Assembly: GCA_003056265.1 (NCBI GenBank)
Contig: NBVN01000004.1
Span: 270,001 to 302,000 of the forward strand
Direction: 5' to 3'
Length of the DNA: 32,000 bases
Source of the DNA: Zestosphaera tikiterensis
Lineage (GTDB): Archaea > Thermoproteota > Thermoprotei_A > Sulfolobales > NBVN01
In this document: piece by piece, positions 4,354 to 13,023 of the stretch
Position numbering within the stretch: position 1 is the stretch's first letter
Layout of the letters: every line of letters begins with the position of its first letter
Program-made: the position numbers and the translations under genes
The notes under the pieces: model-generated
Databases searched by the model: none
Seen by the model: only the letters and a program-made list of their open reading frames with translations
Told to the model about the DNA's origin: nothing

Positions 4354-4629
4354 GTTTTATCCTCCAATAATCTATAGGAGTTCCCATATATTTTGTCAAC
4401 CAACTGAACAGGATATAAGGGACTCCTGCTGTAAATAGGTTAATAAGATAGGGCAAACCTCCTACTACCCTTAGTAAATTAGCTTTCCTAAAGGGTTATC
4501 GAGTTCTGTGAGCACTTTTAAGCTTTGATACCTGAATGTCGGGTAAAACAGAACTTCAAGTTAGCTTCGATAAGCTTATCAAAGAAGTGAAGGTGTCTCC
4601 ATTTATAGCATTATCCATTTGAGAGAACT

Positions 4630-5148
4630 ACTCAGAGTAATACTCAGAGTAATGAGATTTCCTACGTAGAGCAATTAAAAAGTATTCACCTAAGACAATT
4701 AGAAAATGAAGAATTTTCAGGCCTCATGGAGATTGGGAATTCGTCAAATAAAAAAATTACGGAATGGGATAATGGGAAATTTAGGTGGGATAATGGGAAG
4801 GTGAATGAAATTCACGCATCGATTATCCCGCTGTTGATTATCCCATTATCCCGGGATATCCCGGGAAGACCACGCGTAGCTTCCCATTATCCCATTATCC
4901 CACTCTCAAAAACAATATGGGATCCCTAGCGGGATAAACGGGAAAACTGGGAAACCCCGATCAAACAGCATGAGTTTTACATACTACTTCATCCTACTAG
5001 AAACTAACCCTAGAAACTAGGATCCTCTTCAAACATCCTCCCTAATCCTCCCTAACACACTCTTCAACCAACCCTAACGTAAACCTAGAACGTTTAATCG
5101 GGGCTTGCTCTTTAACTGCGGATTTACACTCTGATAAGCTTATCAAAG
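4630..5148. repeat. Left arm of a long imperfect inverted repeat (iteron-rich, ~519 bp)
   Basis: Reverse-complement match to 9528-10017. Perfect blocks: 4957-4985 = rc(9686-9714) and 5031-5057 = rc(9614-9640). Both outer tips carry the tandem 12-mer ACTCAGAGTAAT (4630-4653). GAATTCGT at 4737-4744 matches rc 9903-9910, and CCTCATGGA at 4722-4730 matches rc 9917-9925. Contains about a dozen GGGAT/ATCCC cores and the 16-bp palindrome CCCGGGATATCCCGGG (4850-4865). Confidence 0.9.
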
Positions 5149-5150
5149 CT

Positions 5151-5283
5151 AAGTTTTCTAAGGACTTGAAGATCTTAACAGAGATTATCAATCAGAGAAA
5201 TAGCTAGGAAGGTAGGGCTTAGTAAATCAGCAGTTCATAAAAGACTAGGGAAAATACTTAAAAAGGAAGGGATACACGTTTAA
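5151..5283 (+). pseudogene. Remnant of a small HTH (Lrp/AsnC- or TrmB-like) gene, frame-disrupted, no start codon
   Basis: Frame containing 5179-5283 reads QRLSIREIARKVGLSKSAVHKRLGKILKKEGIHV*, a classic helix-turn-helix. It is preceded by TAA at 5176-5178 and has no start. The adjacent frame (5151-5207) reads KFSKDLKILTEIINQRNS*, which resembles the helix before such an HTH. The two pieces overlap on the same bases in different frames. Confidence 0.35.
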
Positions 5284-5352
5284 GTAACGATTAACCACGC
5301 TGCTTACAGATTAACTTAAGTAGTTAGTTTTACGGGGATGTTTTAGGTATAT

Positions 5353-5362
5353 CTTTTATATT
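5353..5362 (+). promoter_or_regulatory. TATA box (CTTTTATATT) for the AbrB-like/zinc-ribbon/RM operon; predicts a leaderless transcript
   Basis: The T/A box is centred near 5357, about 26 nt upstream of the TTG start at 5384. This is the usual archaeal TATA-to-TSS spacing. Confidence 0.4.
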
Positions 5363-5383
5363 CTAGGGCAATAACCTAGTATA

Positions 5384-5578
5384 TTGGGGGATGCCTTGGG
5401 TTGTGTTGATTTAAGTAGGTGTGTTAAGGTTAAGATATTAAAGTTAAGGAAGAAGCAGAAGGGGGTTGACGTTAGAATACCTAAGGAAGTCGTGGAGAAG
5501 ATGAATTTAAAAGGCAAGGAGAAGGTTGAGGTATACGTAGATTATGAAAACGGACTCATAATATATAAACCGTTTTAA
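5384..5578 (+). CDS. SpoVT/AbrB-like DNA-binding protein (antitoxin/controller-like)
   Basis: The C-terminal 45 aa, VDVRIPKEVVEKMNLKGKEKVEVYVDYENGLIIYKPF, fit the AbrB swapped-hairpin pattern (v.iPkev.e.l.lk.Gd.v.v....g.iii.p). The only in-frame starts are TTG 5384 or TTG 5396. Confidence 0.6.
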   Translation: MGDALGCVDLSRCVKVKILKLRKKQKGVDVRIPKEVVEKMNLKGKEKVEVYVDYENGLIIYKPF

Positions 5579-5588
5579 GGTGGGAAAC

Positions 5589-5786
5589 ATGGTTAAATGC
5601 CCTTACTGTGGCTACGAATCAAACATAAACGACTTTAAACTTCTTAGAAATCCATGGAGATATAGGTTCTACGAGGTTAGGAGGCTTGAATGCCCTAAAT
5701 GCCGTAAAGTATTCAACTACTACTACGAAGTAACATCTGAAGGTAAGGAAGTTAAGTTCATGATTAGAGTAAAGCCTAGAGGGTGA
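5589..5786 (+). CDS. small zinc-ribbon protein (CPYC...CPKC)
   Basis: Two CxxC pairs (CPYCGYES ... CPKCRKVF). ATG 5589 is preceded by GGTGG (5579-5583). The ORF track starts at GTG 5580. Lies 10 nt after the AbrB-like stop, so probably the same operon. Confidence 0.6.
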   Translation: MVKCPYCGYESNINDFKLLRNPWRYRFYEVRRLECPKCRKVFNYYYEVTSEGKEVKFMIRVKPRG

Positions 5787-5882
5787 TGAAGCGTCCGAGT
5801 TTGTGATTGGGATGAGGTTTGGGGCTGTGAGTATGTTAAAGGTGATGATGAACAGATAAGAAAGGCTTTGAAGGTGTGAAAG

Positions 5883-7427
5883 TTGAGTAAGGTAGGTCTG
5901 GAATTTACTCAAATAAGCTTTGCTTCAGAGGTAAAGGATTGGATAAATGAAATCATTAAAAACGAAAGATTAAGGTTTGAATACGCTGATATTGAAATAA
6001 AGGACCCACGTCGGAAAAGGGCTGATGTAATCCTATGGGAGAAGAGGAGAGAGAAGAAACCAGCACTTTTAATTGAGATATGGGATCCAAGCACCCCTCC
6101 TTGGGAGGATGCGTTAGATTCCGCCTTAGCTAAAGCATGGAAAAACAATATCCCTTATTTTGTTGTATGGAATTTAACGCACTTCTACTGTTGGGATACT
6201 TTTAAAGAGGGTGAAGTGATAGATAAGCTTTGGTGGCCTCATGCAGGCGTAAGCGAAGTAGTAACTAAGGCTTTAACGTATGAAGACGCTATTTTAAAGT
6301 ATAGTGAAGGGATTAAAAACTACATTAGAAATTTCCTTAAGGAGTTTGAAGAGGTTTATTACGGTATTAAGGCTAAGCCTTTACTTGGGATTGATGAAAG
6401 ATTCATCTATAGGTTAAGAGGCACGATTCACGCACTATCGATACCTGTTTTTGAGGAGTTAAAGAAGAGAACGCAGGAAGACATCCGGTTTAAGAAGGAG
6501 CTTATCAAATACTTTAAGGAACAAGGATGGACGTTTAAAGGAACGGACGAGGATTTCGAAAGAGTAGCAAGGCAATACATCTACTTACTTACCAACAAAT
6601 TACTTTTCTACAACGTTCTCCGTACAATCCCCTCATATAGAGAACTACCTAAGATCGAGATCCCCAAGGATGTCACAACCGGTGAAAAGCTAAGGGATAT
6701 ACTAAATTCTTACTTTGAACGTGCCTTTAAGACAACCGGAAATTACGAGACAATCCTACTTACAGATTTCTTAGACTCCATAATCCCGCCGGATGGTGTG
6801 GTTGAAGGTCTTAAGGAATTTATCCGTAAGATAAGCGATTACGACTTTTCAAAGATTACATATGAAATCTTAGGAAACATATTTCAAAGGCTAATACCGG
6901 AGGAGGAAAGGCATAAACTCGGTCAGTACTTCACGAGGTCTGATGTAGTTGACCTCATAGTAGGTTTCTGTGTAAGAAATGCCGACGATAAAGTGTTGGA
7001 TGGTAGTTGTGGTGCGGGGACGTTTCTAGTGCGGTCTTACGTGAGGAAAAAGCTACTTAACCCTAGTAAAAAGCATAAGGAGCTTATTAAGGAACTATTC
7101 GGGATTGACATCGCGAAGTTCCCAGCTCATCTCTCAATCATAAACTTGGCTAGTAGAAACCTATCAGAGGTTGAGAACTACCCTAACATCATTCATAAGG
7201 ATTTCTTCGACGTAAGCCCAAGTGGGAAATATCCCTTAACTGATGTAAAGCATAATGAAGTAAAGCATAAAGTTGAAACTTTAGGTAAGAAAGAGTTCTT
7301 TATTGAAATACCAGAGTCTTTTGATGCTGTAGTGATGAATCCACCATACACTAGGCAGGAGGAATTGGAGGACATACTTGAGGAAGAAAGAGCAAAGCGT
7401 ATGATGTATGCATTAAGGATTGGATAG
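5883..7427 (+). CDS. Type IIG restriction-modification enzyme, fragment 1 of 3 (N-terminal nuclease-like region + gamma-class N6-adenine methyltransferase motifs I-IV)
   Basis: TTG start with AGGTG 6 nt upstream. Contains GQYFTRSDVVDLIV, motif I (VLDGSCGAGTFLV) and motif IV (VMNPPYTRQEE). The N-terminus has a PD-(D/E)xK-like layout (RADVILWEK...ALLIEIWD). The frame ends at TAG 7425-7427, shortly after NPPY, but the protein continues in another frame. Confidence 0.85.
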   Translation: MSKVGLEFTQISFASEVKDWINEIIKNERLRFEYADIEIKDPRRKRADVILWEKRREKKPALLIEIWDPSTPPWEDALDSALAKAWKNNIPYFVVWNLTHFYCWDTFKEGEVIDKLWWPHAGVSEVVTKALTYEDAILKYSEGIKNYIRNFLKEFEEVYYGIKAKPLLGIDERFIYRLRGTIHALSIPVFEELKKRTQEDIRFKKELIKYFKEQGWTFKGTDEDFERVARQYIYLLTNKLLFYNVLRTIPSYRELPKIEIPKDVTTGEKLRDILNSYFERAFKTTGNYETILLTDFLDSIIPPDGVVEGLKEFIRKISDYDFSKITYEILGNIFQRLIPEEERHKLGQYFTRSDVVDLIVGFCVRNADDKVLDGSCGAGTFLVRSYVRKKLLNPSKKHKELIKELFGIDIAKFPAHLSIINLASRNLSEVENYPNIIHKDFFDVSPSGKYPLTDVKHNEVKHKVETLGKKEFFIEIPESFDAVVMNPPYTRQEELEDILEEERAKRMMYALRIG

Positions 7428-8323
7428 ACCTTAGAAGCGATAAATACAGGAAAAACAACCCTCCAAAGCTTAGCAAGAGGTCAAGTATCTACGTTTACTT
7501 CTTCATCCACGGAGCTAGGTTCTTAAAAGAAGGCGGTAGGTTGGGGTTGATTACTTCAAACTCTTGGCTGGACGTTGATTATGGCGGAGACTTGCAAAGA
7601 TTCTTTCTTGAAAACTTCAAGATAATCGCTGTTATTGAAAGTAAGGTAGAGAGGTGGTTTGAAGACGCCGATATCAACACAGCGATAACGATACTTGAGA
7701 GATGTAGCAATTCAGAAGAAAGAAATAACAACTTAGTCAAATTCGTCCAGCTTAAGAAACCTCTATCTGAATTCATACCTCCAACAAACGATGAAAACGA
7801 AAGGTGGAGAAACGTTGATAAATTAGTTAACTTCATAGAATCTAAAAACCAATACTTCGAAGATGAAAACATAAGGATATTTGTAAAGAAGCAGGAGGAG
7901 CTATGGGAAGAAGGTTACGATGAAGAGAAAAAAGAATACGTTGGAACAAAGTGGGGCAAATATATTAGGGCTCCAGAAATTTTTTACAAGGTCTTGACTA
8001 CCAAAAAAGATAAATTTGTGCCTCTTAAGAAACTAGCAAGAATCGGTCGAGGTTTAAGGACAGGTTTCAATTCCTTCTTTTACTTAAGTGCTCAGAAAGC
8101 TGAAAAACTCGGAATTATGAACTTTACACGTCCACTAATTAAATCTCCAAAGGATAGTGAGTACACTCTGTTAAGTAAAGCTAAATTGCGAAATAGAATT
8201 TTTACAGTAAATGAGGAATTAAATTCTCTTATAAGGACAAAAGCTTATGACTATATAAAAATGGGCGAGAGAAAAGGGGTGCCTCAAAGACGAGGTAAAA
8301 AAAGAAAAATGGTGGTCCTTTGA
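7382..8323 (+). CDS. Type IIG RM enzyme, fragment 2 of 3 (methyltransferase motifs after NPPY, start of the target-recognition region)
   Basis: Frame 2 is open from 7382 (TGA at 7379-7381). It reads ...KSKAYDVCIKDWIDLRSDKYRKNNPPKLSKRSSIYVYFFIHGARFLKEGGRLGLITSNSWLDVDYGGDLQRFFLENFKIIAVIE, the expected continuation of Eco57I-like enzymes. The ORF track starts at TTG 7541. Confidence 0.8.
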   Translation, partial: GRKSKAYDVCIKDWIDLRSDKYRKNNPPKLSKRSSIYVYFFIHGARFLKEGGRLGLITSNSWLDVDYGGDLQRFFLENFKIIAVIESKVERWFEDADINTAITILERCSNSEERNNNLVKFVQLKKPLSEFIPPTNDENERWRNVDKLVNFIESKNQYFEDENIRIFVKKQEELWEEGYDEEKKEYVGTKWGKYIRAPEIFYKVLTTKKDKFVPLKKLARIGRGLRTGFNSFFYLSAQKAEKLGIMNFTRPLIKSPKDSEYTLLSKAKLRNRIFTVNEELNSLIRTKAYDYIKMGERKGVPQRRGKKRKMVVL

Positions 8324-9293
8324 GGAGGAATGTATAAGGGCTGATTTATTTATTCCAATCCAATTGTGGGAAACATATAAAATATTTCTTAATGATACAA
8401 AAGAACACATACTGTTTGATCAGCAATTGAGCGGTCTTAAATTTAAGGATTTTAAGACAGCAAAGCTTGTTTGTGCAGTATTAACCTCTACCCTAGGCAA
8501 CTTATTCTTGGAGATTGTAGGAAGAAGTCAGCTTGGTCAGGGGTCATTACAACTAGCGACTATAGATCTCCATAGCCTTCCTTGCTTGATTATAGCAGAG
8601 GAAAAGATAATAGAAAAAATTTTCAAGGTTTTTGAAAAACTATGTGAAAGAAAGATTTTAACTATCTATGAAGAGATCGGTGCAAGTTCGCCAGAAGGAG
8701 TTTCCCTAAATAAAGTAAAGCCTGATAGAAGGGAATTAGATAAAATCATAATGGGTGAAATCTTAGGCTTAACTGAGGAAGAGCAGTTAGAGGTTTATAG
8801 AGCAGTTGTGGATCTTGTTAGGTCGAGGCTTGAAAGAGCTAAAAGCGTTCAAAAGAAGAAGGTTAAGGAGCTGAATGTTGACGATCTTGTGGATTCTGTT
8901 TTAAAAGAATTAGAGGAAGTTCACGGTATAAAGGCTAAAGAATTCCCGGAAGAGTACATAGGGAGGTGTGAGTATAAAGTTGTTGAAGTTCCAAAGGGGT
9001 CTGAAGTTGAGGTTGGTTATGATTTAAGAGGTCCGTACGTTCGAATAGATAATGAAAAGGTTAGATGTTCTTCAATTTACGAAGCAAGGTTCATAGGATA
9101 TGCTGTTTTAGCTGGTAAGACCAAGATAATGGTACCTAAAGATGAAAACATATTGAAAAAAGCTGTAGAAGAAAGAAGGAAGTTCCTAGAGGAAGCAAGG
9201 ATGAAGATAGAGGAATTTATTAATGAAACGATAACGGATAAAAAGCTAAGAGAGGATGTAAAGTTTAAAGCATTTAAGAAGCTAGGCATGTAA
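8259..9293 (+). CDS. Type IIG RM enzyme, fragment 3 of 3 (C-terminal target-recognition region)
   Basis: Frame 3 is open from 8259. From about 8310 it reads WWSFEEECIRADLFIPIQLWETYKIFLNDTKEHILFDQQL...AVLTSTLGNLFLEIVGRSQLGQGSLQLATIDLHSLP, the WY.l / LNS...e..gr..lG.G motif block of this enzyme family. The ORF track starts at TTG 8364. Confidence 0.8.
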   Translation, partial: KWAREKGCLKDEVKKEKWWSFEEECIRADLFIPIQLWETYKIFLNDTKEHILFDQQLSGLKFKDFKTAKLVCAVLTSTLGNLFLEIVGRSQLGQGSLQLATIDLHSLPCLIIAEEKIIEKIFKVFEKLCERKILTIYEEIGASSPEGVSLNKVKPDRRELDKIIMGEILGLTEEEQLEVYRAVVDLVRSRLERAKSVQKKKVKELNVDDLVDSVLKELEEVHGIKAKEFPEEYIGRCEYKVVEVPKGSEVEVGYDLRGPYVRIDNEKVRCSSIYEARFIGYAVLAGKTKIMVPKDENILKKAVEERRKFLEEARMKIEEFINETITDKKLREDVKFKAFKKLGM

Positions 9294-9527
9294 CACTATT
9301 TATGAGAACCCTAGACGCTATAAAGTTTTCTAATTAAGAGCATATATGTGAATACCTGCAAATCTCATAAAGAGGGAAGACTTTAAAAACATTATCACTA
9401 TAGAGAGTAAATTTACTCTTAAAACACATTCCAACCTACACTAAAACCTCAGAAAAGCTAATTAAAATAAAAAACTAGATTTTCAGAGTTTATCAAGAAC
9501 TGAAAATTCACTCAACCAGCTTTCTTA

Positions 9528-10017
9528 GTTAAGCTCATCAAAGTGTAAATTTACACTCAAGAACAAGCCCCGACTAAACACTCCAGGTCTGCATTAGGGT
9601 TAGTTGGGGAGGATGTTAGGGAGGATTAGGGAGGATGTTTGAGGAGGATCTAGTTTTCGAGATTAGCTTTCTAGCAGGATGAAGCAGTATGTAAAACTCA
9701 TGCTGTTTGATCGGTTTTGTCCCGGTGTGTCCCACCGTCCACGCGTCTGTCCCAAGCTGTTTTAGAAAGTGGGACAGTGGGACAATGGGACACCACGCGT
9801 GGTGTCCCGGGACAATGGGACAATCGCCGCGTGAATTTCTTTCGCTGTCCCATTGTCCCAATCAAATGTCTCATTTGTCCCAAACTAAAAGATTTTCAAT
9901 TCACGAATTCGCGGTTTCCATGAGGTTCGAACGGCTTTCAGCATTTAATTGCCTTTGCCGAATGCTTTTTAATTGTCCAATGTTCATATATATTGTACTC
10001 TGAGTATTACTCTGAGT
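9528..10017. repeat. Right arm of the long imperfect inverted repeat (iteron-rich, ~490 bp)
   Basis: Reverse complement of 4630-5148 (see the left arm). Contains about a dozen GGGAC/GTCCC cores, the perfect 22-bp palindrome GGGACACCACGCGTGGTGTCCC (9787-9808), four GGAGGAT copies (9608-9649), the 16-bp palindrome AGTGTAAATTTACACT (9542-9557) and the 12-mer pair at 9994-10017. Confidence 0.9.
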
Positions 10018-10060
10018 GTGCGGTTTAATCATGCTTATTAATTCAGATATGTTAAGGTAG

Positions 10061-10375
10061 TTGGTGTTAAGAGTGAGAGGCGAGGGAAAGACAACCATCG
10101 AGGTATCGCTTGAGACTAGGGAACTGCTTAGGAGGGTCTCCCAGAGGGTTGGGATGACTTACGACGAGGTTCTTAAGATGCTCCTAGAATCATTCGAAAA
10201 TCTGCTGAATTGCAGAGTTAGGGTTGATGAGGTCGTAGGCGACGTTATCTTGGTGTGCGACGTCGGTGAGGAGGAGCCTGAGGAGATAAGCATAGACAGG
10301 AGGGAGTATAGAAGGCTTAGGAAGGTTTTGAAGTTCCTACTGAAGCCTAAGGAATCGCTCCACCCTACCTACTAG
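10061..10375 (+). CDS. putative ribbon-helix-helix (CopG/Arc-like) DNA-binding protein
   Basis: The N-terminus KTTIEVSLETRELLRRVSQRVGMTYDEVLKMLLESF fits a beta-strand/helix/helix RHH layout. The C-terminal half is acidic then basic. The start is ambiguous (TTG 10061, GTG 10064 or GTG 10073). Sits immediately outside the right arm. Confidence 0.5.
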   Translation: MVLRVRGEGKTTIEVSLETRELLRRVSQRVGMTYDEVLKMLLESFENLLNCRVRVDEVVGDVILVCDVGEEEPEEISIDRREYRRLRKVLKFLLKPKESLHPTY

Positions 10376-10788
10376 AAAACTGGATGGGTTGAAAGTTTTA
10401 CTTTCTAAGCAGCAGGTGGGATTCGTGCTGTTTGGTTGTGTCTTTTAAAGTGTTTTTCAATTATCTGTGGGCGGATACGCTAGGGTTGATCTTGATGATC
10501 GGATAATGTTACCAATGAAGATTAAGTTATGCGTGGCTTGTTTTGTTTTCCTATATTGCCTATAGCGGTTTTGTGGGGGTATTTTCTTAACGATAGATGG
10601 TGTTGTCTTACGGATTTATTAACTTTTCCTTACTTTACTTGCCCTAGTTGAAGATGAGGAGGTTTTAGTTTTTCAAACTTGATTTATGGTAGGTTTAAGT
10701 CTTAAAGGAGGTGATGGGTTACTTACGTTATTACGTTATGGAGTGTTTATTAGCTTTATTTAAAGATAATATTATGGTAGTGGCGTAA

Positions 10789-11382
10789 GTGATGGTGTTC
10801 ATGTATAACATACGTGGGGGGCAGGCGAACTTATTTGTGGTAGTTATGTTGGTAGGTCTTGTTTTAGTTCTTGGTGTAAGTCTTGCGGGTTATTTCTCTA
10901 CCTACGTAGCTAGCGTTAGTTCTGAAAGCAGTCTTAAAAACGCAATACAGTATGAGATAGCTAATACGGTCGTATATAAGGAGTTCGATAGCGGTACGGC
11001 TGTATGGTTGGGTTTGATAAGGATAGATGGGTCTAGCACTACATACTACATGCTCGTTATAAACACCTCCTCCTGCGTATGGCAGAGGATCTCCGAAGAG
11101 AATATCGTGAGCAACCTACTAAGCAACGGTTTAGAGGGTGTTAGGGCTGGAAGATCCGTAGATTTAAACAGCGTGTATATATTAGATCCAGACGGAAACC
11201 ACATCCCCATAAAGACATACTATAGGGGGTCATCACCTATAACGATATATGAAATCTTCGTTGAAGCGGGCGGTAAGCCTAAACTCATAGGACCGATACC
11301 GCATGGGGGAGGGTGTGTTGAGGTCGTGTTTTTAACCCTCGCAAACAATAACTATTATGAGGTAGGTAAGGTTTATGTATAG
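10789..11382 (+). CDS. pilin-like protein with class III (prepilin-type) signal peptide
   Basis: The N-terminus ...MYNIRGGQANLFVVVMLVGLVLVLGVSLAGYF has a short basic leader, a G-Q-A cleavage-type motif and a hydrophobic helix. The likely true start is ATG 10801. Overlaps the next pilin-like gene by 8 nt. Confidence 0.65.
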   Translation: MMVFMYNIRGGQANLFVVVMLVGLVLVLGVSLAGYFSTYVASVSSESSLKNAIQYEIANTVVYKEFDSGTAVWLGLIRIDGSSTTYYMLVINTSSCVWQRISEENIVSNLLSNGLEGVRAGRSVDLNSVYILDPDGNHIPIKTYYRGSSPITIYEIFVEAGGKPKLIGPIPHGGGCVEVVFLTLANNNYYEVGKVYV

Positions 11383-12556
11383 AGTAAAACCTTCAAGAGG
11401 TCAGGCGGAGATAATAGGTGCTACCATAGCTTTAGGGTTGCTAGTCCTAGCTATAGCGTCTATGTTAGCGATAATGCAGAGAACATCAGCAACATCAACA
11501 ACAAACTTCGCAAAAAGAGTAAACTTCGAGAATGAAAGACTTTCAGAGAAGCTAAGCGTTACATACAACTCAACAAGTGGGGAATGCATCCTAAGAAACT
11601 ACGGCTCACTAGACACGGTAATCATAAGAATATGGAACAACAACCAACACTACGACAGTAAATACGGCGATCACAACCTTCCAATAGTTTTAAAACCTAA
11701 CGAAGAAGAAAGATTTACCTTCAGCGAAACACCACAATACATAGTTACGTCAAGAGGAAACGTAATACCGTTTAAAAACATGTGTGAAGAATTAAAACAA
11801 CGTCTAACAACCCCCCCATCTGTTGGCGAAAGCTTTATAAAGTCTGAGGATGTATTGACGGGAGAAGCGAATTTTAAACCAACAAAAGATAGAGCCATAG
11901 TATGCTCTATTGAGATTGGTAATACAAGACCCACGTGTTATGTAGCATATAACTTCACTAATTACGGTAAAATATGGCGTCGATACAATCCTGTTAACGG
12001 TTGGGAAAGTAACATTAACGCTAGACTTACTTCCGACACCGACCGTGATGGTGTTAACGAACTAACGCTTGTAGACGATGCTTGGAATGAGATCAATTTT
12101 ACAAGAGGTCAGAGCCCTACTATAAGGGTAACGTTCGTTAATTCTACGATTATAGATGACGATACAGACGTTATCTACGTTACGTATAGACTTGCCGTTA
12201 ATGCTATAGTAAGTAACGCTGCTGCACCGTTCGGGTTTAGTTTAAGTAGTTTTGTAGAATTAACGACAACCAATACTGGTGCGACATTCCCAGCTGCGGT
12301 TAGCTTTATCTCTATACCTAGGTCTGAAAAAGTAGGGGGTTCTTATAACGTAATTGCTATCCTTGAAGCAAGTGTTGCCATACCGAGGAAGGCATATTCG
12401 TCGTTAAGTGGTTTATTACAGCCCGGGATCTATAATTTAACCATAACAGTTTTGATTAATAATCCACAACAAGGTTCTGCGGATTTTGCTAAGGCTGTAC
12501 GTCTTGAGAGTGTAACGATAACGGGTGCTGAAATAAAATGGTATGAAAAGATATAG
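11375..12556 (+). CDS. large pilin-like protein (393 aa) with class III signal peptide
   Basis: MYRVKPSRGQAEIIGATIALGLLVLAIASMLAI carries the RGQAEIIG motif typical of archaeal flagellin/pilin N-terminal domains. Followed by a long beta-rich extracellular region. Confidence 0.7.
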   Translation: MYRVKPSRGQAEIIGATIALGLLVLAIASMLAIMQRTSATSTTNFAKRVNFENERLSEKLSVTYNSTSGECILRNYGSLDTVIIRIWNNNQHYDSKYGDHNLPIVLKPNEEERFTFSETPQYIVTSRGNVIPFKNMCEELKQRLTTPPSVGESFIKSEDVLTGEANFKPTKDRAIVCSIEIGNTRPTCYVAYNFTNYGKIWRRYNPVNGWESNINARLTSDTDRDGVNELTLVDDAWNEINFTRGQSPTIRVTFVNSTIIDDDTDVIYVTYRLAVNAIVSNAAAPFGFSLSSFVELTTTNTGATFPAAVSFISIPRSEKVGGSYNVIAILEASVAIPRKAYSSLSGLLQPGIYNLTITVLINNPQQGSADFAKAVRLESVTITGAEIKWYEKI

Positions 12557-12978
12557 CTTAGAACTAGTAGTTTTCACATTCATCTTTAAATTAAATGGCT
12601 TAAATGTTGTTAGGTTTTTAGTAGCGTTTGTTTTAACGCCTTCAGCGGTTTAATATCGTATATTTCCTTCAATAATCTTAATATTAAAGCTTTGTTAAGC
12701 ACTACCTATATTTAATGACTTGTTAATAATACGTAAATTCTTACTAAAAACATCCTCAGCTAATAATTACTTAATTTTCACGATTTCCCCTAGGTTTAAA
12801 CATGCTTTATTTGAAGTTTTACGTAGTGTATGTAGTGAGTTTATGTTATTTGCTGTGAATGCATTAAGTAAGAAAGCAAGGTAGTTAAGAATATGGGAAC
12901 ACAGTCCTCGTAAGGTGATGTAAGTTCTTAAAGTTAAAGCTATGTGATCATGAAGTTTTAAGTTTATTAACAGTAGTG

Positions 12979-12986
12979 TTTATAAA
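12979..12986 (+). promoter_or_regulatory. TATA box (TTTATAAA) of the major pilin gene; GGAGGT Shine-Dalgarno at 13010-13015
   Basis: Consensus-like TATA about 26 nt upstream of a predicted TSS near 13009. GGAGGT lies 8 nt before ATG 13024. Located at the end of a 467-bp very AT-rich spacer. Confidence 0.5.
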
Positions 12987-13023
12987 GGAGTGCGATACAT
13001 TATATTATTGGAGGTAATTAAAT

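What the first reader, a model, noticed from the sequence alone, without database searches (positions are those of the whole stretch)
4765..9882. Concerted one-base switch in every octamer iteron between the two arms (GGGAT-type against GGGAC-type)
The dominant repeat in the left arm is TGGGATAA/TTATCCCA. Examples are 4765-4772, 4786-4793, 4838-4845, 4887-4894 and 4895-4902, plus GGGAT cores at 4853, 4919 and 4931.

At the homologous positions the right arm uses TGGGACA(A/G/C)/TTGTCCCA. Examples are 9770-9793 (three in tandem), 9809-9823, 9846-9860 and 9875-9882, plus GTCCC cores at 9719, 9729, 9749 and 9804.

By eye there are about a dozen cores per arm. No GGGAC-type core occurs in the left array and no GGGAT-type core in the right array. 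The central palindromes follow the same rule: CCCGGGATATCCCGGG at 4850-4865 against GGGACACCACGCGTGGTGTCCC at 9787-9808.

Independent drift would not change every copy in the same way. This implies either intra-arm homogenisation (gene conversion) or two arms tuned to two different sequence-specific binding proteins. That second case would mean functionally asymmetric ends, as in left/right transposon ends or incompatible iteron sets.
Basis: seen in the sequence. Interest (0 to 1): 0.8.

Follow-up and report, generated by a model that had tools for sequence, protein, structure and literature searches.

The report
Lineage-specific octamer arrays before an archaeal regulator gene
Two inverted 500-base non-coding stretches in a hot-spring archaeon carry about a dozen copies each of an 8-base motif that differs by one fixed letter, and related genomes show at least four such motif versions at the same locus, which points to a protein-binding array whose recognition sequence has changed repeatedly.

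Summary
The left array (4734-4955) has 12 GGGAT/ATCCC cores and no GGGAC. The right array (9717-9882) has 12 GGGAC/GTCCC cores and no GGGAT. The switch sits at homologous positions of two roughly 500-nt inverted arms that are about 80% identical.

The arms are not the two ends of one element. Each is a version of a conserved non-coding region that, in five metagenome contigs from relatives of Zestosphaera tikiterensis, lies as a single copy upstream of a small RHH-like gene (10061-10375 here).

Across seven arms the octamer comes in four types: TGGGA(T/A)AA, TGGGACAA, TGGAACAA and TGAAACAA. They are linked by single transitions. Cores are 92-100% identical within a type, against 71-82% for the surrounding arm sequence. 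One arm mixes two types.

The 8-bp spacing, both orientations, and variation confined to one tetramer resemble ParG- or MetJ-type cooperative operator arrays. The predicted DNA-reading strand of the linked protein does not co-vary with octamer type, so the binder is unidentified.

No transposase, replication initiator or partition ATPase was found in or beside the arm-flanked segment. The cargo is a frameshifted type IIG restriction-modification gene. I found no published description.

The parts
9524..10045 (+). Right arm: conserved non-coding region directly upstream of the RHH-like gene, octamer type GGGAC
   Evidence: Aligns over its length with arms upstream of RHH orthologues in L005, L006, L007, L027 and L029. 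About 80% identical to the left arm in reverse complement.
9717..9882 (.). Right octamer array: 12 (T/C)GGGACA(A/G/C) units, 5 on the + strand and 7 on the - strand, plus one degenerate GTCTC site
   Evidence: Tandem units are spaced exactly 8 bp (9771, 9779, 9787; 9809, 9817; 9847, 9855). The units at 9809/9817 and 9847/9855 are dyad-symmetric about roughly 9834.
4600..5155 (-). Left arm: a second, inverted copy of the same region, of the GGGA(T/A) lineage. It keeps the operator and the TATA-like box but has no RHH-like gene.
   Evidence: Its octamer cores are 94-100% identical to those of L027 and L029. tblastn finds no RHH remnant to its left.
4734..4955 (.). Left octamer array: 12 GGGAT/ATCCC and 7 GGGAA/TTCCC cores in both orientations, including a roughly 26-nt insertion (about 4836-4861) that the right arm lacks
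   Evidence: The positions of TTCCC versus ATCCC are the same in winL, L027 and L029.
9996..10018 (+). Two tandem 11-bp near-palindromes, TACTCTGAGTA T TACTCTGAGTG, just upstream of the TATA-like box of the RHH-like gene. Proposed operator of that protein.
   Evidence: Nearly invariant in all 7 arms whatever the octamer type. 22/22 complementary between the two window arms (I6). 7 matches in the window against 1.1 expected.
4629..4651 (-). The same tandem palindromes in the left arm
10061..10375 (+). 104-aa gene for a predicted strand-helix-helix (RHH-like) protein with a small beta-rich C-terminal domain. It is the only gene found next to every arm whose flank is available except the left one.
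   Evidence: Orthologues at 82-99% identity sit directly downstream of arms in L005, L006, L007, L027 and L029. AF2 model with pLDDT 82 has helices at 17-30 and 34-49. hhalign against CopG is in register, P = 3e-4. No Pfam or PDB match.
9668..9716 (+). Best-conserved unique block of the arm (left-arm copy at 4955-5003, - strand). It has hairpin-plus-T-run potential, and a roughly 75% identical direct copy lies downstream of the gene at 10392-10440.
   Evidence: (I1, D9).
9594..9650 (+). G-rich repeats of about 11 nt, (G)TTAGGGAGGA, at the distal end of the arm (left-arm copy at 5021-5079, - strand)
   Evidence: D14, I9. Conserved in L005-L007.
5384..5786 (+). Cargo between the arms: AbrB/MazE-like gene (5384-5578) and zinc-ribbon gene (5580-5786)
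   Evidence: Pfam PF04014 at 1e-8 and TIGR01439. Homologues lie at the far side of the cargo in L006 and L005.
5883..9293 (+). Cargo: type IIG restriction-modification gene broken by two frameshifts (near 7385 and near 8280)
   Evidence: ORF1 and ORF2 match consecutive parts of PADLOC model PDLC03606, positions 192-475 and 521-748 of 935. Pfam N6_Mtase, Eco57I and HSDR_N_2. The reading frames continue across the breaks.
4558..4584 (.). 27-nt inverted repeat around the palindrome GATAAGCTTATC. Its partner at 5129-5155 brackets the left arm. A related copy lies at 9524-9550.
   Evidence: I4, 89%; I5; D3.

Best explanation
Each arm is a copy of a conserved control region of about 450-500 bp that normally sits upstream of a small RHH-like gene in Zestosphaera-like Desulfurococcaceae. 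Its centre is a dense array of 8-bp units with consensus T-G-(G/A)-(G/A)-A-(C/T/A)-A-A. There are 9-19 units per complete arm, head-to-tail at exactly 8 bp or in dyad-symmetric groups.

I infer that these units are cooperative binding sites for a sequence-specific DNA-binding protein, one dimer per unit, as in ParG, omega or MetJ arrays. The tetramer at positions 3-6 would carry the specificity. That tetramer has shifted by single transitions in different lineages (GGAT/GGAA, GGAC, GAAC, AAAC), and every site in an arm has been selected to follow.

The window holds two of these specificity types in one genome. The resident GGGAC arm has its gene. A GGGA(T/A)-lineage arm has lost the gene at a breakpoint just after its promoter. 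The two lie inverted around a decaying restriction-modification cassette inside a variable island.

The linked RHH-like protein most likely binds the invariant tandem palindromes next to its own TATA box and regulates itself. The octamer reader is probably a different protein, not yet identified.

Shown: the anatomy, the types, and the pattern of selection on cores. Inferred: protein binding, the role of the tetramer, and which protein binds where.
For: 1. Concerted type at homologous sites in 7 arms.
2. Cores are 0.92-1.00 identical within a type while the rest of the arm is 0.71-0.82. Between types, cores fall to 0.54-0.85. That is purifying selection on each site within a type and a directed shift between types.
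3. In 82 octamers, position 1 is T in 77% and position 7 is A in 82%; G2 and A5 were part of the motif used to collect the units. The differences that define the types fall at positions 3, 4 and 6. The commonest same-strand spacing is 8 bp.
4. This matches the ParG paradigm of a 4-bp box plus a 4-bp spacer, direct or inverted, with the box differing between homologues, and the 8-bp MetJ boxes (PMC3413123, read).
5. In all three GGGA(T/A) arms the dyad partners are GGGAT and TTCCC, a conserved T.T non-pair. Sequence rather than base pairing is therefore what is kept.
6. The arm is linked to the RHH-like gene in 6 of 7 cases.
7. The tandem palindromes are nearly invariant across types and abut the TATA-like box. 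This resembles the tandem 11-bp operators of the archaeal virus RHH repressor F55 (PMC5569661).
8. The left arm groups with L027 and L029 in cores and in class-specific flanking motifs.
Against: - No binding experiment exists, and no candidate protein co-varies with type.
- RHH-like proteins with the same predicted ribbon (RGRGRTTVEVS) accompany GGGAT, GGGAC and GGAAC arms.
- L006 mixes GGAAC with GAAAC, and L005 has one GGAAC site, so types are not perfectly discrete.
- All type differences are transitions, which a biased mutational process could also produce.
- Only 7 arms from 6 contigs were available, all short. How many copies a genome holds is unknown.
- The RHH fold is supported only weakly.
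Confidence: 0.5

Rival explanations
1. The adjacent RHH-like protein itself coats the octamers. It reads only the invariant positions, and the uniform core within an arm comes from molecular drive (template switching or gene conversion among many short direct and inverted repeats), not from a change of specificity.
For: It is the only gene consistently linked to arms. An 8-bp unit spacing is typical of RHH arrays. The arrays have strong intrastrand pairing potential, which favours template switching: z = -6.5 and -4.7. P0005, which accompanies GAAAC, carries T12L in the predicted ribbon.
Against: Position-specific GGGAA versus GGGAT differences are retained in three GGGA(T/A) arms whose flanks are only 71-77% identical. 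That argues against ongoing homogenisation. Octamer number, position and orientation are conserved site by site between types, so the changes were point substitutions and not array turnover. The T12L change also coincides with changes in the tandem palindromes of the same locus, so it is ambiguous.
Confidence: 0.2
2. The inverted octamers matter as nucleic-acid secondary structure, either a cruciform or hairpin in single-stranded DNA (a transfer or replication origin) or a structured non-coding RNA. The concerted changes would then be compensatory.
For: Fold z-scores are -6.5 and -4.7. 18 of 73 alifold pairs show double changes. The test helix exceeds shuffles and slid controls. The linked protein has a weak match to the BfmA/BtgA mobilisation-protein N-terminus (E = 0.0014, below cut-off).
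Against: The alifold covariation term is about 0 and double changes are largely confined to the octamers. Direct repeats changed in the same way, which pairing does not require. The class-defining pair is T.T in all three GGGA(T/A) arms, and only 76% of cells pair. There is no Rfam match even at E = 1. No relaxase or Rep gene is present.
Confidence: 0.1
3. Segment 4558-10045 is a mobile or invertible unit: a restriction-modification cassette with long terminal inverted repeats whose subterminal repeats bind a transposase or recombinase.
For: Two inverted arms bracket a restriction-modification cassette. The region next to LEA_2 differs in relatives. The left arm is bracketed by a 27-nt inverted repeat (I4).
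Against: No transposase, integrase or invertase lies in or near the segment. Relatives carry a single arm at an orthologous site with conserved downstream flank. No target-site duplication is evident. The arm's outer end is a promoter and operator for a gene, not a terminus.
Confidence: 0.07
4. The octamers are target sites of a DNA methyltransferase or restriction-modification enzyme. Parallel C-to-T or G-to-A deamination at the methylated base, or shifts in enzyme specificity, produced the same transition in every copy.
For: All inter-type differences are transitions. Type IIG enzymes lie next to arms in the window and in L005. From my own knowledge, not tested here, specificities in this enzyme class can change by single bases.
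Against: The window and L005 enzymes match different PADLOC models, yet both adjoin GGGAC arms. L006 has no restriction-modification gene in the 2.8 kb next to its arm. Arms track the RHH-like gene, not the cargo. The motifs are not depleted elsewhere in the window, although 31 kb gives little power. A purely mutational process would not keep cores more conserved than flanks.
Confidence: 0.08

Closest known systems
ParG operator and centromere arrays (TP228 OF/parH) and the ParG homologues of Yersinia and Aeromonas; MetJ met-boxes
   Same: Arrays of short units with a fixed 8-bp centre-to-centre distance, in direct and inverted orientation. A 4-bp box carries specificity and differs between homologous systems. 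The arrays lie upstream of the gene for a small RHH protein (PMC3413123).
   Different: Here there are 9-19 units per complete arm spread over 165-230 bp in several clusters. No ParA/ParF partner gene is present. The locus is chromosomal and archaeal. The ribbon of the linked protein does not co-vary with the box.
Omega repressor heptad arrays of pSM19035 (from my own knowledge, not checked here)
   Same: Seven to ten contiguous short repeats in mixed orientation, bound cooperatively by an RHH dimer per unit.
   Different: A 7-bp unit and a single specificity. Plasmid-borne, controlling copy number and partition genes.
F55 (SSV1) and other archaeal virus RHH regulators
   Same: A small archaeal RHH protein with tandem operator repeats of about 11 bp at its own promoter, and polymerisation along DNA (PMC5569661). 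This is the best model for the tandem palindromes at 9996-10018.
   Different: Those systems have two to four sites, not a multi-cluster array, and no series of specificity types is known.
Iteron and incompatibility systems of plasmids; P1/P7 parS discriminator boxes; DNA-uptake-sequence 'dialects' of Neisseriaceae (from my own knowledge)
   Same: Many copies of a short site change together with the specificity of a trans-acting reader. This gives discrete, mutually exclusive types separated by one or two bases.
   Different: No Rep, ParB or uptake receptor is identified here, and no evidence shows the locus replicates, partitions or is taken up.
Subterminal repeat regions of Ac/Ds and En/Spm, and the multi-site ends of Tn7 and Mu
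   Same: Dozens of short motifs in both orientations within a few hundred bp of an inverted pair of ends.
   Different: No transposase is present. A single arm is the normal state. The arm ends in a promoter for a resident gene.

Membership tests
RHH-type cooperative operator or centromere array (ParG / omega / MetJ kind) | Short repeat units abutting at a fixed 7-8 bp centre-to-centre distance | tested here: met
   The commonest same-strand gap is 8 bp in all 7 arms, for example 9771/9779/9787 and 4889/4897.
RHH-type cooperative operator or centromere array (ParG / omega / MetJ kind) | Units occur in both direct and inverted orientation | tested here: met
   5 on the + strand and 7 on the - strand in the right arm. 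The orientation pattern is conserved across arms.
RHH-type cooperative operator or centromere array (ParG / omega / MetJ kind) | A specificity box of about 4 bp plus a less specific spacer; the box differs between homologous systems | tested here: met
   The differences that define the types fall at positions 3, 4 and 6 of the octamer. T1 is 77% and A7 is 82% among 82 units.
RHH-type cooperative operator or centromere array (ParG / omega / MetJ kind) | The cognate RHH protein is encoded next to the array | tested here: inconclusive
   A conserved 100-104-aa gene follows 6 of 7 arms. Its RHH fold rests on helix order in an AF2 model (pLDDT 82), an in-register hhalign to CopG (P = 3e-4, probability 38%) and a sub-threshold NCBIfam hit. 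There is no Pfam, PDB-sequence or Foldseek match.
RHH-type cooperative operator or centromere array (ParG / omega / MetJ kind) | Ribbon residues of the protein co-vary with the box sequence | tested here: not met
   P0004 (GGGAT), P0006 (GGGAC) and P0003 (GGAAC) share the ribbon RGRGRTTVEVS. Only P0005 (GAAAC) differs, by T12L.
RHH-type cooperative operator or centromere array (ParG / omega / MetJ kind) | A partner partition NTPase (needed for a centromere role) | tested here: not met
   No ParA-, ParM- or TubZ-like gene was found among the ORFs scanned in and around the arm-flanked segment or next to arms in L005-L007.
RHH-type cooperative operator or centromere array (ParG / omega / MetJ kind) | Protein occupancy of the units | not testable with these tools
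   Needs EMSA, footprinting or ChIP.
Transposon or insertion element with terminal inverted repeats | A transposase or recombinase encoded in or beside the element | tested here: not met
   Between the arms lie only an AbrB-like gene, a zinc-ribbon gene and a type IIG restriction-modification gene. The flanks hold pilus-type genes and the RHH-like gene.
Transposon or insertion element with terminal inverted repeats | Both ends present wherever the element occurs; copies at unrelated sites | tested here: not met
   L005 has one arm in 15.7 kb. L006 and L007 have one arm each. Arms sit in a conserved context with the same downstream sequence.
Transposon or insertion element with terminal inverted repeats | Target-site duplication | tested here: inconclusive
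   No direct repeat is evident at 4550-4560 versus 10040-10050. No empty site was recovered, because LEA_2 orthologous loci differ entirely on that side.
Iteron-type replication origin (plasmid Rep/iteron or archaeal ORB/Orc1) | An initiator gene (Rep, Orc1/Cdc6, WhiP) adjacent | tested here: not met
   None among the ORFs scanned in the window or the neighbours of arms in the related contigs.
Iteron-type replication origin (plasmid Rep/iteron or archaeal ORB/Orc1) | An AT-rich unwinding element flanked by the repeats | tested here: not met
   Spacers between octamer clusters are only 15-22 nt and not markedly AT-rich.
Structured RNA | Covariation supporting helices outside simple repeats; match to a known family | tested here: not met
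   The alifold covariation term is +0.31 kcal/mol and double changes are largely confined to the octamers. A conserved T.T occurs at the class-defining pair. No Rfam match.

The most novel reading that the evidence does not exclude
The octamer tetramer is a recognition 'barcode' of a so far undescribed archaeal chromosomal or island-borne module: array, RHH-like gene and an unlinked reader protein. At least four mutually exclusive specificity types are kept apart by selection against cross-talk between co-resident or incoming copies, as in plasmid incompatibility or phage immunity. The window would capture two types side by side in one genome, flanking a defence cassette. A further possibility is that the array is a helper-dependent origin or a decoy matched to particular viruses or plasmids.
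Probability: 0.3. Interest if true: 0.8.

Novelty: new variant of a known kind. Interest (0 to 1): 0.62.

Why it matters
If the octamers are protein-binding sites, this locus is a natural series of single-base specificity shifts. Ten to twenty sites have followed each shift, in closely related hyperthermophilic archaea. That makes the co-evolution of a DNA-binding protein and its sites directly testable.

It also marks a conserved, undescribed regulatory module at the edge of a variable defence island in Desulfurococcaceae. The RHH-like protein family is tiny, with 12 representatives among 1.84 billion proteins. Very few cis-regulatory systems are known in this group.

The data also show that what looked like the two ends of one element are two lineage versions of a single-copy locus that have come together in one genome.

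Tried and rejected
- Rfam at gathering threshold and at E <= 1, and a tRNA scan: nothing.
- blastn of the left arm against PLSDB plasmids and INPHARED phages: no match.
- Exact 20-mers from the best-conserved blocks in IMG/VR: none.
- The single genome-contig scan returned only a chance Bacteroidales hit, so the source genome and GTDB relatives could not be scanned.
- The single metagenome-contig scan, with a pattern invariant in 5 arms, gave 18 hits and the IMG/VR scan gave 1. None has any further arm similarity, so all are chance.
- The RHH profile in IMG/VR: no relative.
- Exact look-up of P0001, the Z. tikiterensis protein: not on record, so the 454-kb NCBI contig could not be read.
- AbrB-like protein as octamer reader. 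The idea came from the TGGNA motifs reported for Bacillus AbrB (PMC3025583). The gene is absent from the 9.5 kb next to the L005 arm and truncated in L006, so it is not supported.
- Zinc-ribbon proteins: they go with the restriction-modification cargo, not with the arms.
- 'Divergence island' idea: rejected. RHH CDS identity (82-89%) is similar to that of the LEA_2 orthologues (about 82%). It is the 250 nt downstream that is unusually conserved.
- Foldseek with both AF2 models: no significant match.
- Full-text search for the repeat sequences and for iteron/RHH/archaea combinations: nothing relevant.

Full report
**What is in the sequence**

The window is archaeal chromosome. It carries pilus-type genes (T2SSF at 334-2175, class III signal-peptide proteins at 10789-12556), SHMT, TBP and ABC transporters. 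One protein is 99% identical to a Zestosphaera tikiterensis (Desulfurococcaceae) protein, PUA32399.1.

Two non-coding stretches form an inverted repeat of about 80% identity: roughly 4600-5155 and 9524-10045.
- The left array (4734-4955) holds 12 GGGAT/ATCCC and 7 GGGAA/TTCCC cores, and no GGGAC.
- The right array (9717-9882) holds 12 GGGAC/GTCCC cores, and no GGGAT.
- TGGGAYAA occurs 11 times in 32 kb, 9 of them in the arrays, against 1.8 expected.
- The alignment puts the T/A-type and C-type cores at homologous columns.

The corrections are given under the observation check. The left type is GGGA(T/A). The two 'central palindromes' are not homologous, because 4850-4865 lies in an insertion.

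**What lies between and beside the arms**

Three genes lie between the arms:
- an AbrB/MazE-like gene (5384-5578);
- a zinc-ribbon gene (5580-5786);
- one type IIG restriction-modification gene split by two frameshifts (5883-9293). Its first two ORFs match consecutive parts of one PADLOC model, and the frames read through the breaks.

There is no transposase, integrase, Rep, Orc1 or ParA. Directly outside the right arm is a 104-aa ORF (10061-10375). Nothing equivalent lies outside the left arm.

**Related loci change the picture**

The 104-aa protein has orthologues of 82-86% identity in JGI hot-spring metagenomes. Every recovered contig has an arm directly upstream of that gene, and only one arm where enough sequence is available. 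L005 has one arm in 15.7 kb.

The arm is thus a conserved upstream region of this gene, not one end of a two-ended element. Alignment of seven arms (A4) shows shared landmarks:
- G-rich 11-mers;
- a highly conserved unique block;
- three octamer clusters separated by conserved spacers;
- a conserved stretch containing ACGAATTC and TCCATGAGG;
- two tandem 11-bp near-palindromes (TACTCTGAGTA);
- a TATA-like box and then the start codon.

The octamers at homologous sites fall into four types:
- TGGGACAA in the window right arm and L005;
- TGGAACAA in L006;
- TGAAACAA in L007, where the array has expanded to 15 or more units;
- TGGGA(T/A)AA in the window left arm, L027 and L029.

The types are linked by single transitions.

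**Evidence that octamer type is selected**

Over eight shared sites (64 columns), core identity within a type is 0.92-1.00. The remaining 252 arm columns are 0.71-0.82 identical. Between types, cores drop to 0.54-0.85.

L029 (GGGAT) is closest in non-core sequence to L007 (GAAAC), at 0.81. Its cores are only 0.54 identical to L007's and 1.00 identical to the left arm's. Octamer type is therefore uncoupled from the history of the flanks, either by recombination or by convergence.

The window's left arm shares cores and class-specific flanking motifs with L027 and L029. It therefore comes from a separate lineage and is not a drifted duplicate of the right arm.

The types are not perfectly discrete. 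L006 has 7 GGAAC and 2 GAAAC units, and L005 has one GGAAC site. In the GGGA(T/A) type, the T and A variants occupy fixed positions in all three arms.

**Protein sites or nucleic-acid structure?**

Both arrays fold strongly as single strands, with z = -6.5 and -4.7. This follows trivially from inverted repeats.
- RNAalifold finds double changes largely inside the octamers, with a covariation term near zero.
- In the dyad formed by the two inner clusters, the class-defining pair is C-G in four arms but T.T in all three GGGA(T/A) arms. Only 76% of cells pair.
- Direct repeats changed in step too, which pairing does not demand.

The exact 8-bp unit spacing, the mixed orientation and the confinement of type-defining differences to positions 3, 4 and 6 match the ParG and MetJ style of RHH arrays. 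In those arrays a 4-bp box gives specificity and differs between homologues (PMC3413123).

I therefore favour cooperative protein binding with lineage-specific box sequences.

**Which protein?**

The linked protein is predicted as an extended N-terminus, two helices, three strands and a helix (AF2 pLDDT 82).
- It aligns in register with CopG (P = 3e-4, probability 38%).
- It has a sub-threshold match to a mobilisation-protein RHH N-terminus.
- It has no Pfam, PDB or Foldseek support.

I call it RHH-like, not proven.

Its predicted ribbon is identical (RGRGRTTVEVS) in loci with GGGAT, GGGAC and GGAAC arrays, so it does not explain the types. Only the GAAAC locus has T12L, and there the tandem palindromes have also changed.

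The palindromes are otherwise nearly invariant, are 22/22 identical between the two window arms (I6), and abut the TATA-like box. They are the natural operator for this protein, by analogy with the F55 tandem repeats (PMC5569661). The octamer reader remains unknown. AbrB-like and zinc-ribbon neighbours are not consistently present.

**Context**

- Downstream of the gene, 250 nt (10376-10627) is 91-95% identical among the window, L006, L027 and L029. The gene itself is 82-89% identical and LEA_2 orthologues are about 82% identical. These are orthologous loci of related species, and octamer type differs among them.
- L005 and L007 share a different downstream context.
- LEA_2 orthologous loci in relatives have no arm and quite different neighbours on that side. 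The left arm and the cargo therefore lie in a variable island.
- In the left arm, homology runs through the operator and the TATA-like box and stops where the gene would start.
- The protein family is very small: 12 representatives among 1.84 billion proteins, and 14 clusters among 5.8 billion.

**Verdict**

The pattern is real and stronger than first described. The 'two asymmetric ends' reading is wrong. The 'sites tuned to different recognition specificities' reading is the best available, but it is unproven, and no reader protein has been identified. I found no description of it in the literature searched.

Noticed in passing
window 10376-10627: The non-coding stretch just after the RHH-like gene is 91-95% identical among the window, L006, L027 and L029. 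The gene itself is only 82-89% identical and a flanking orthologue about 82%. This is unusually constrained. There is no Rfam match and no convincing ORF, so it may be an unknown RNA or regulatory element.
   Followed up: partly
window 9668-9716 and 10392-10440 (also L006, L027, L029): A direct repeat of about 50 nt, roughly 75% identical, brackets the octamer array plus gene. Each copy can form a hairpin (AAGCAG.../...TGCTGTTT, with G.U wobbles only on the sense strand) followed by T runs. It looks like a terminator, or possibly an att-like repeat.
   Followed up: partly
window 5883-9293: The type IIG restriction-modification gene is interrupted by two frameshifts (near 7385 and near 8280) and is probably a pseudogene. 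The L005 island also carries a split type IIG gene.
   Followed up: yes
window 4558-4584 / 5129-5155; 9524-9550; promoter at 10028-10042: The palindrome (G/A)ATAAGCTTAT(C/T) recurs at both edges of the left arm, at the inner edge of the right arm, in the gene's promoter, and after the gene in L005 and L007. The two window arms also share a distal extension of about 70 nt that is absent from L005-L007.
   Followed up: partly
window 9404-9418 and 9542-9557: Two copies of the palindrome AG(A/T)GTAAATTTAC(T/A)CT lie between the end of the restriction-modification gene and the right arm.
   Followed up: no
window 9594-9650 and 5021-5079: G-rich repeats of about 11 nt containing TTAGGG/GGGAGGA sit at the distal end of every arm, a second conserved repeat family of unknown role.
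   Followed up: no
L007 2850-2960: The GAAAC-type arm carries an internal expansion of the array, to 15 or more TGAAAC units with a repeated CATGAAAC motif. This shows that unit number can change as well as unit sequence.
   Followed up: partly
window 10789-12556 versus L027/L029: The two pilin-like genes after the conserved stretch are absent from L027 and L029. In those contigs the homologue of 12934-12989 lies about 800 nt after the conserved stretch, so there is another indel polymorphism beside the locus.
   Followed up: no
window 4985 and 10303: Logan contigs of SRR17771679 break at 4985, inside the 29-mer shared by both arms, and at 10303, inside the RHH-like gene. The second break hints at a further copy or a strain variant of that gene in the sample.
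   Followed up: no
L030 4111-5713: In a relative, the variable region next to LEA_2 holds a ParA/CbiA-type ATPase with two small ORFs, and an AAA_5 ATPase pair. This is a different cargo at the same island.
   Followed up: no
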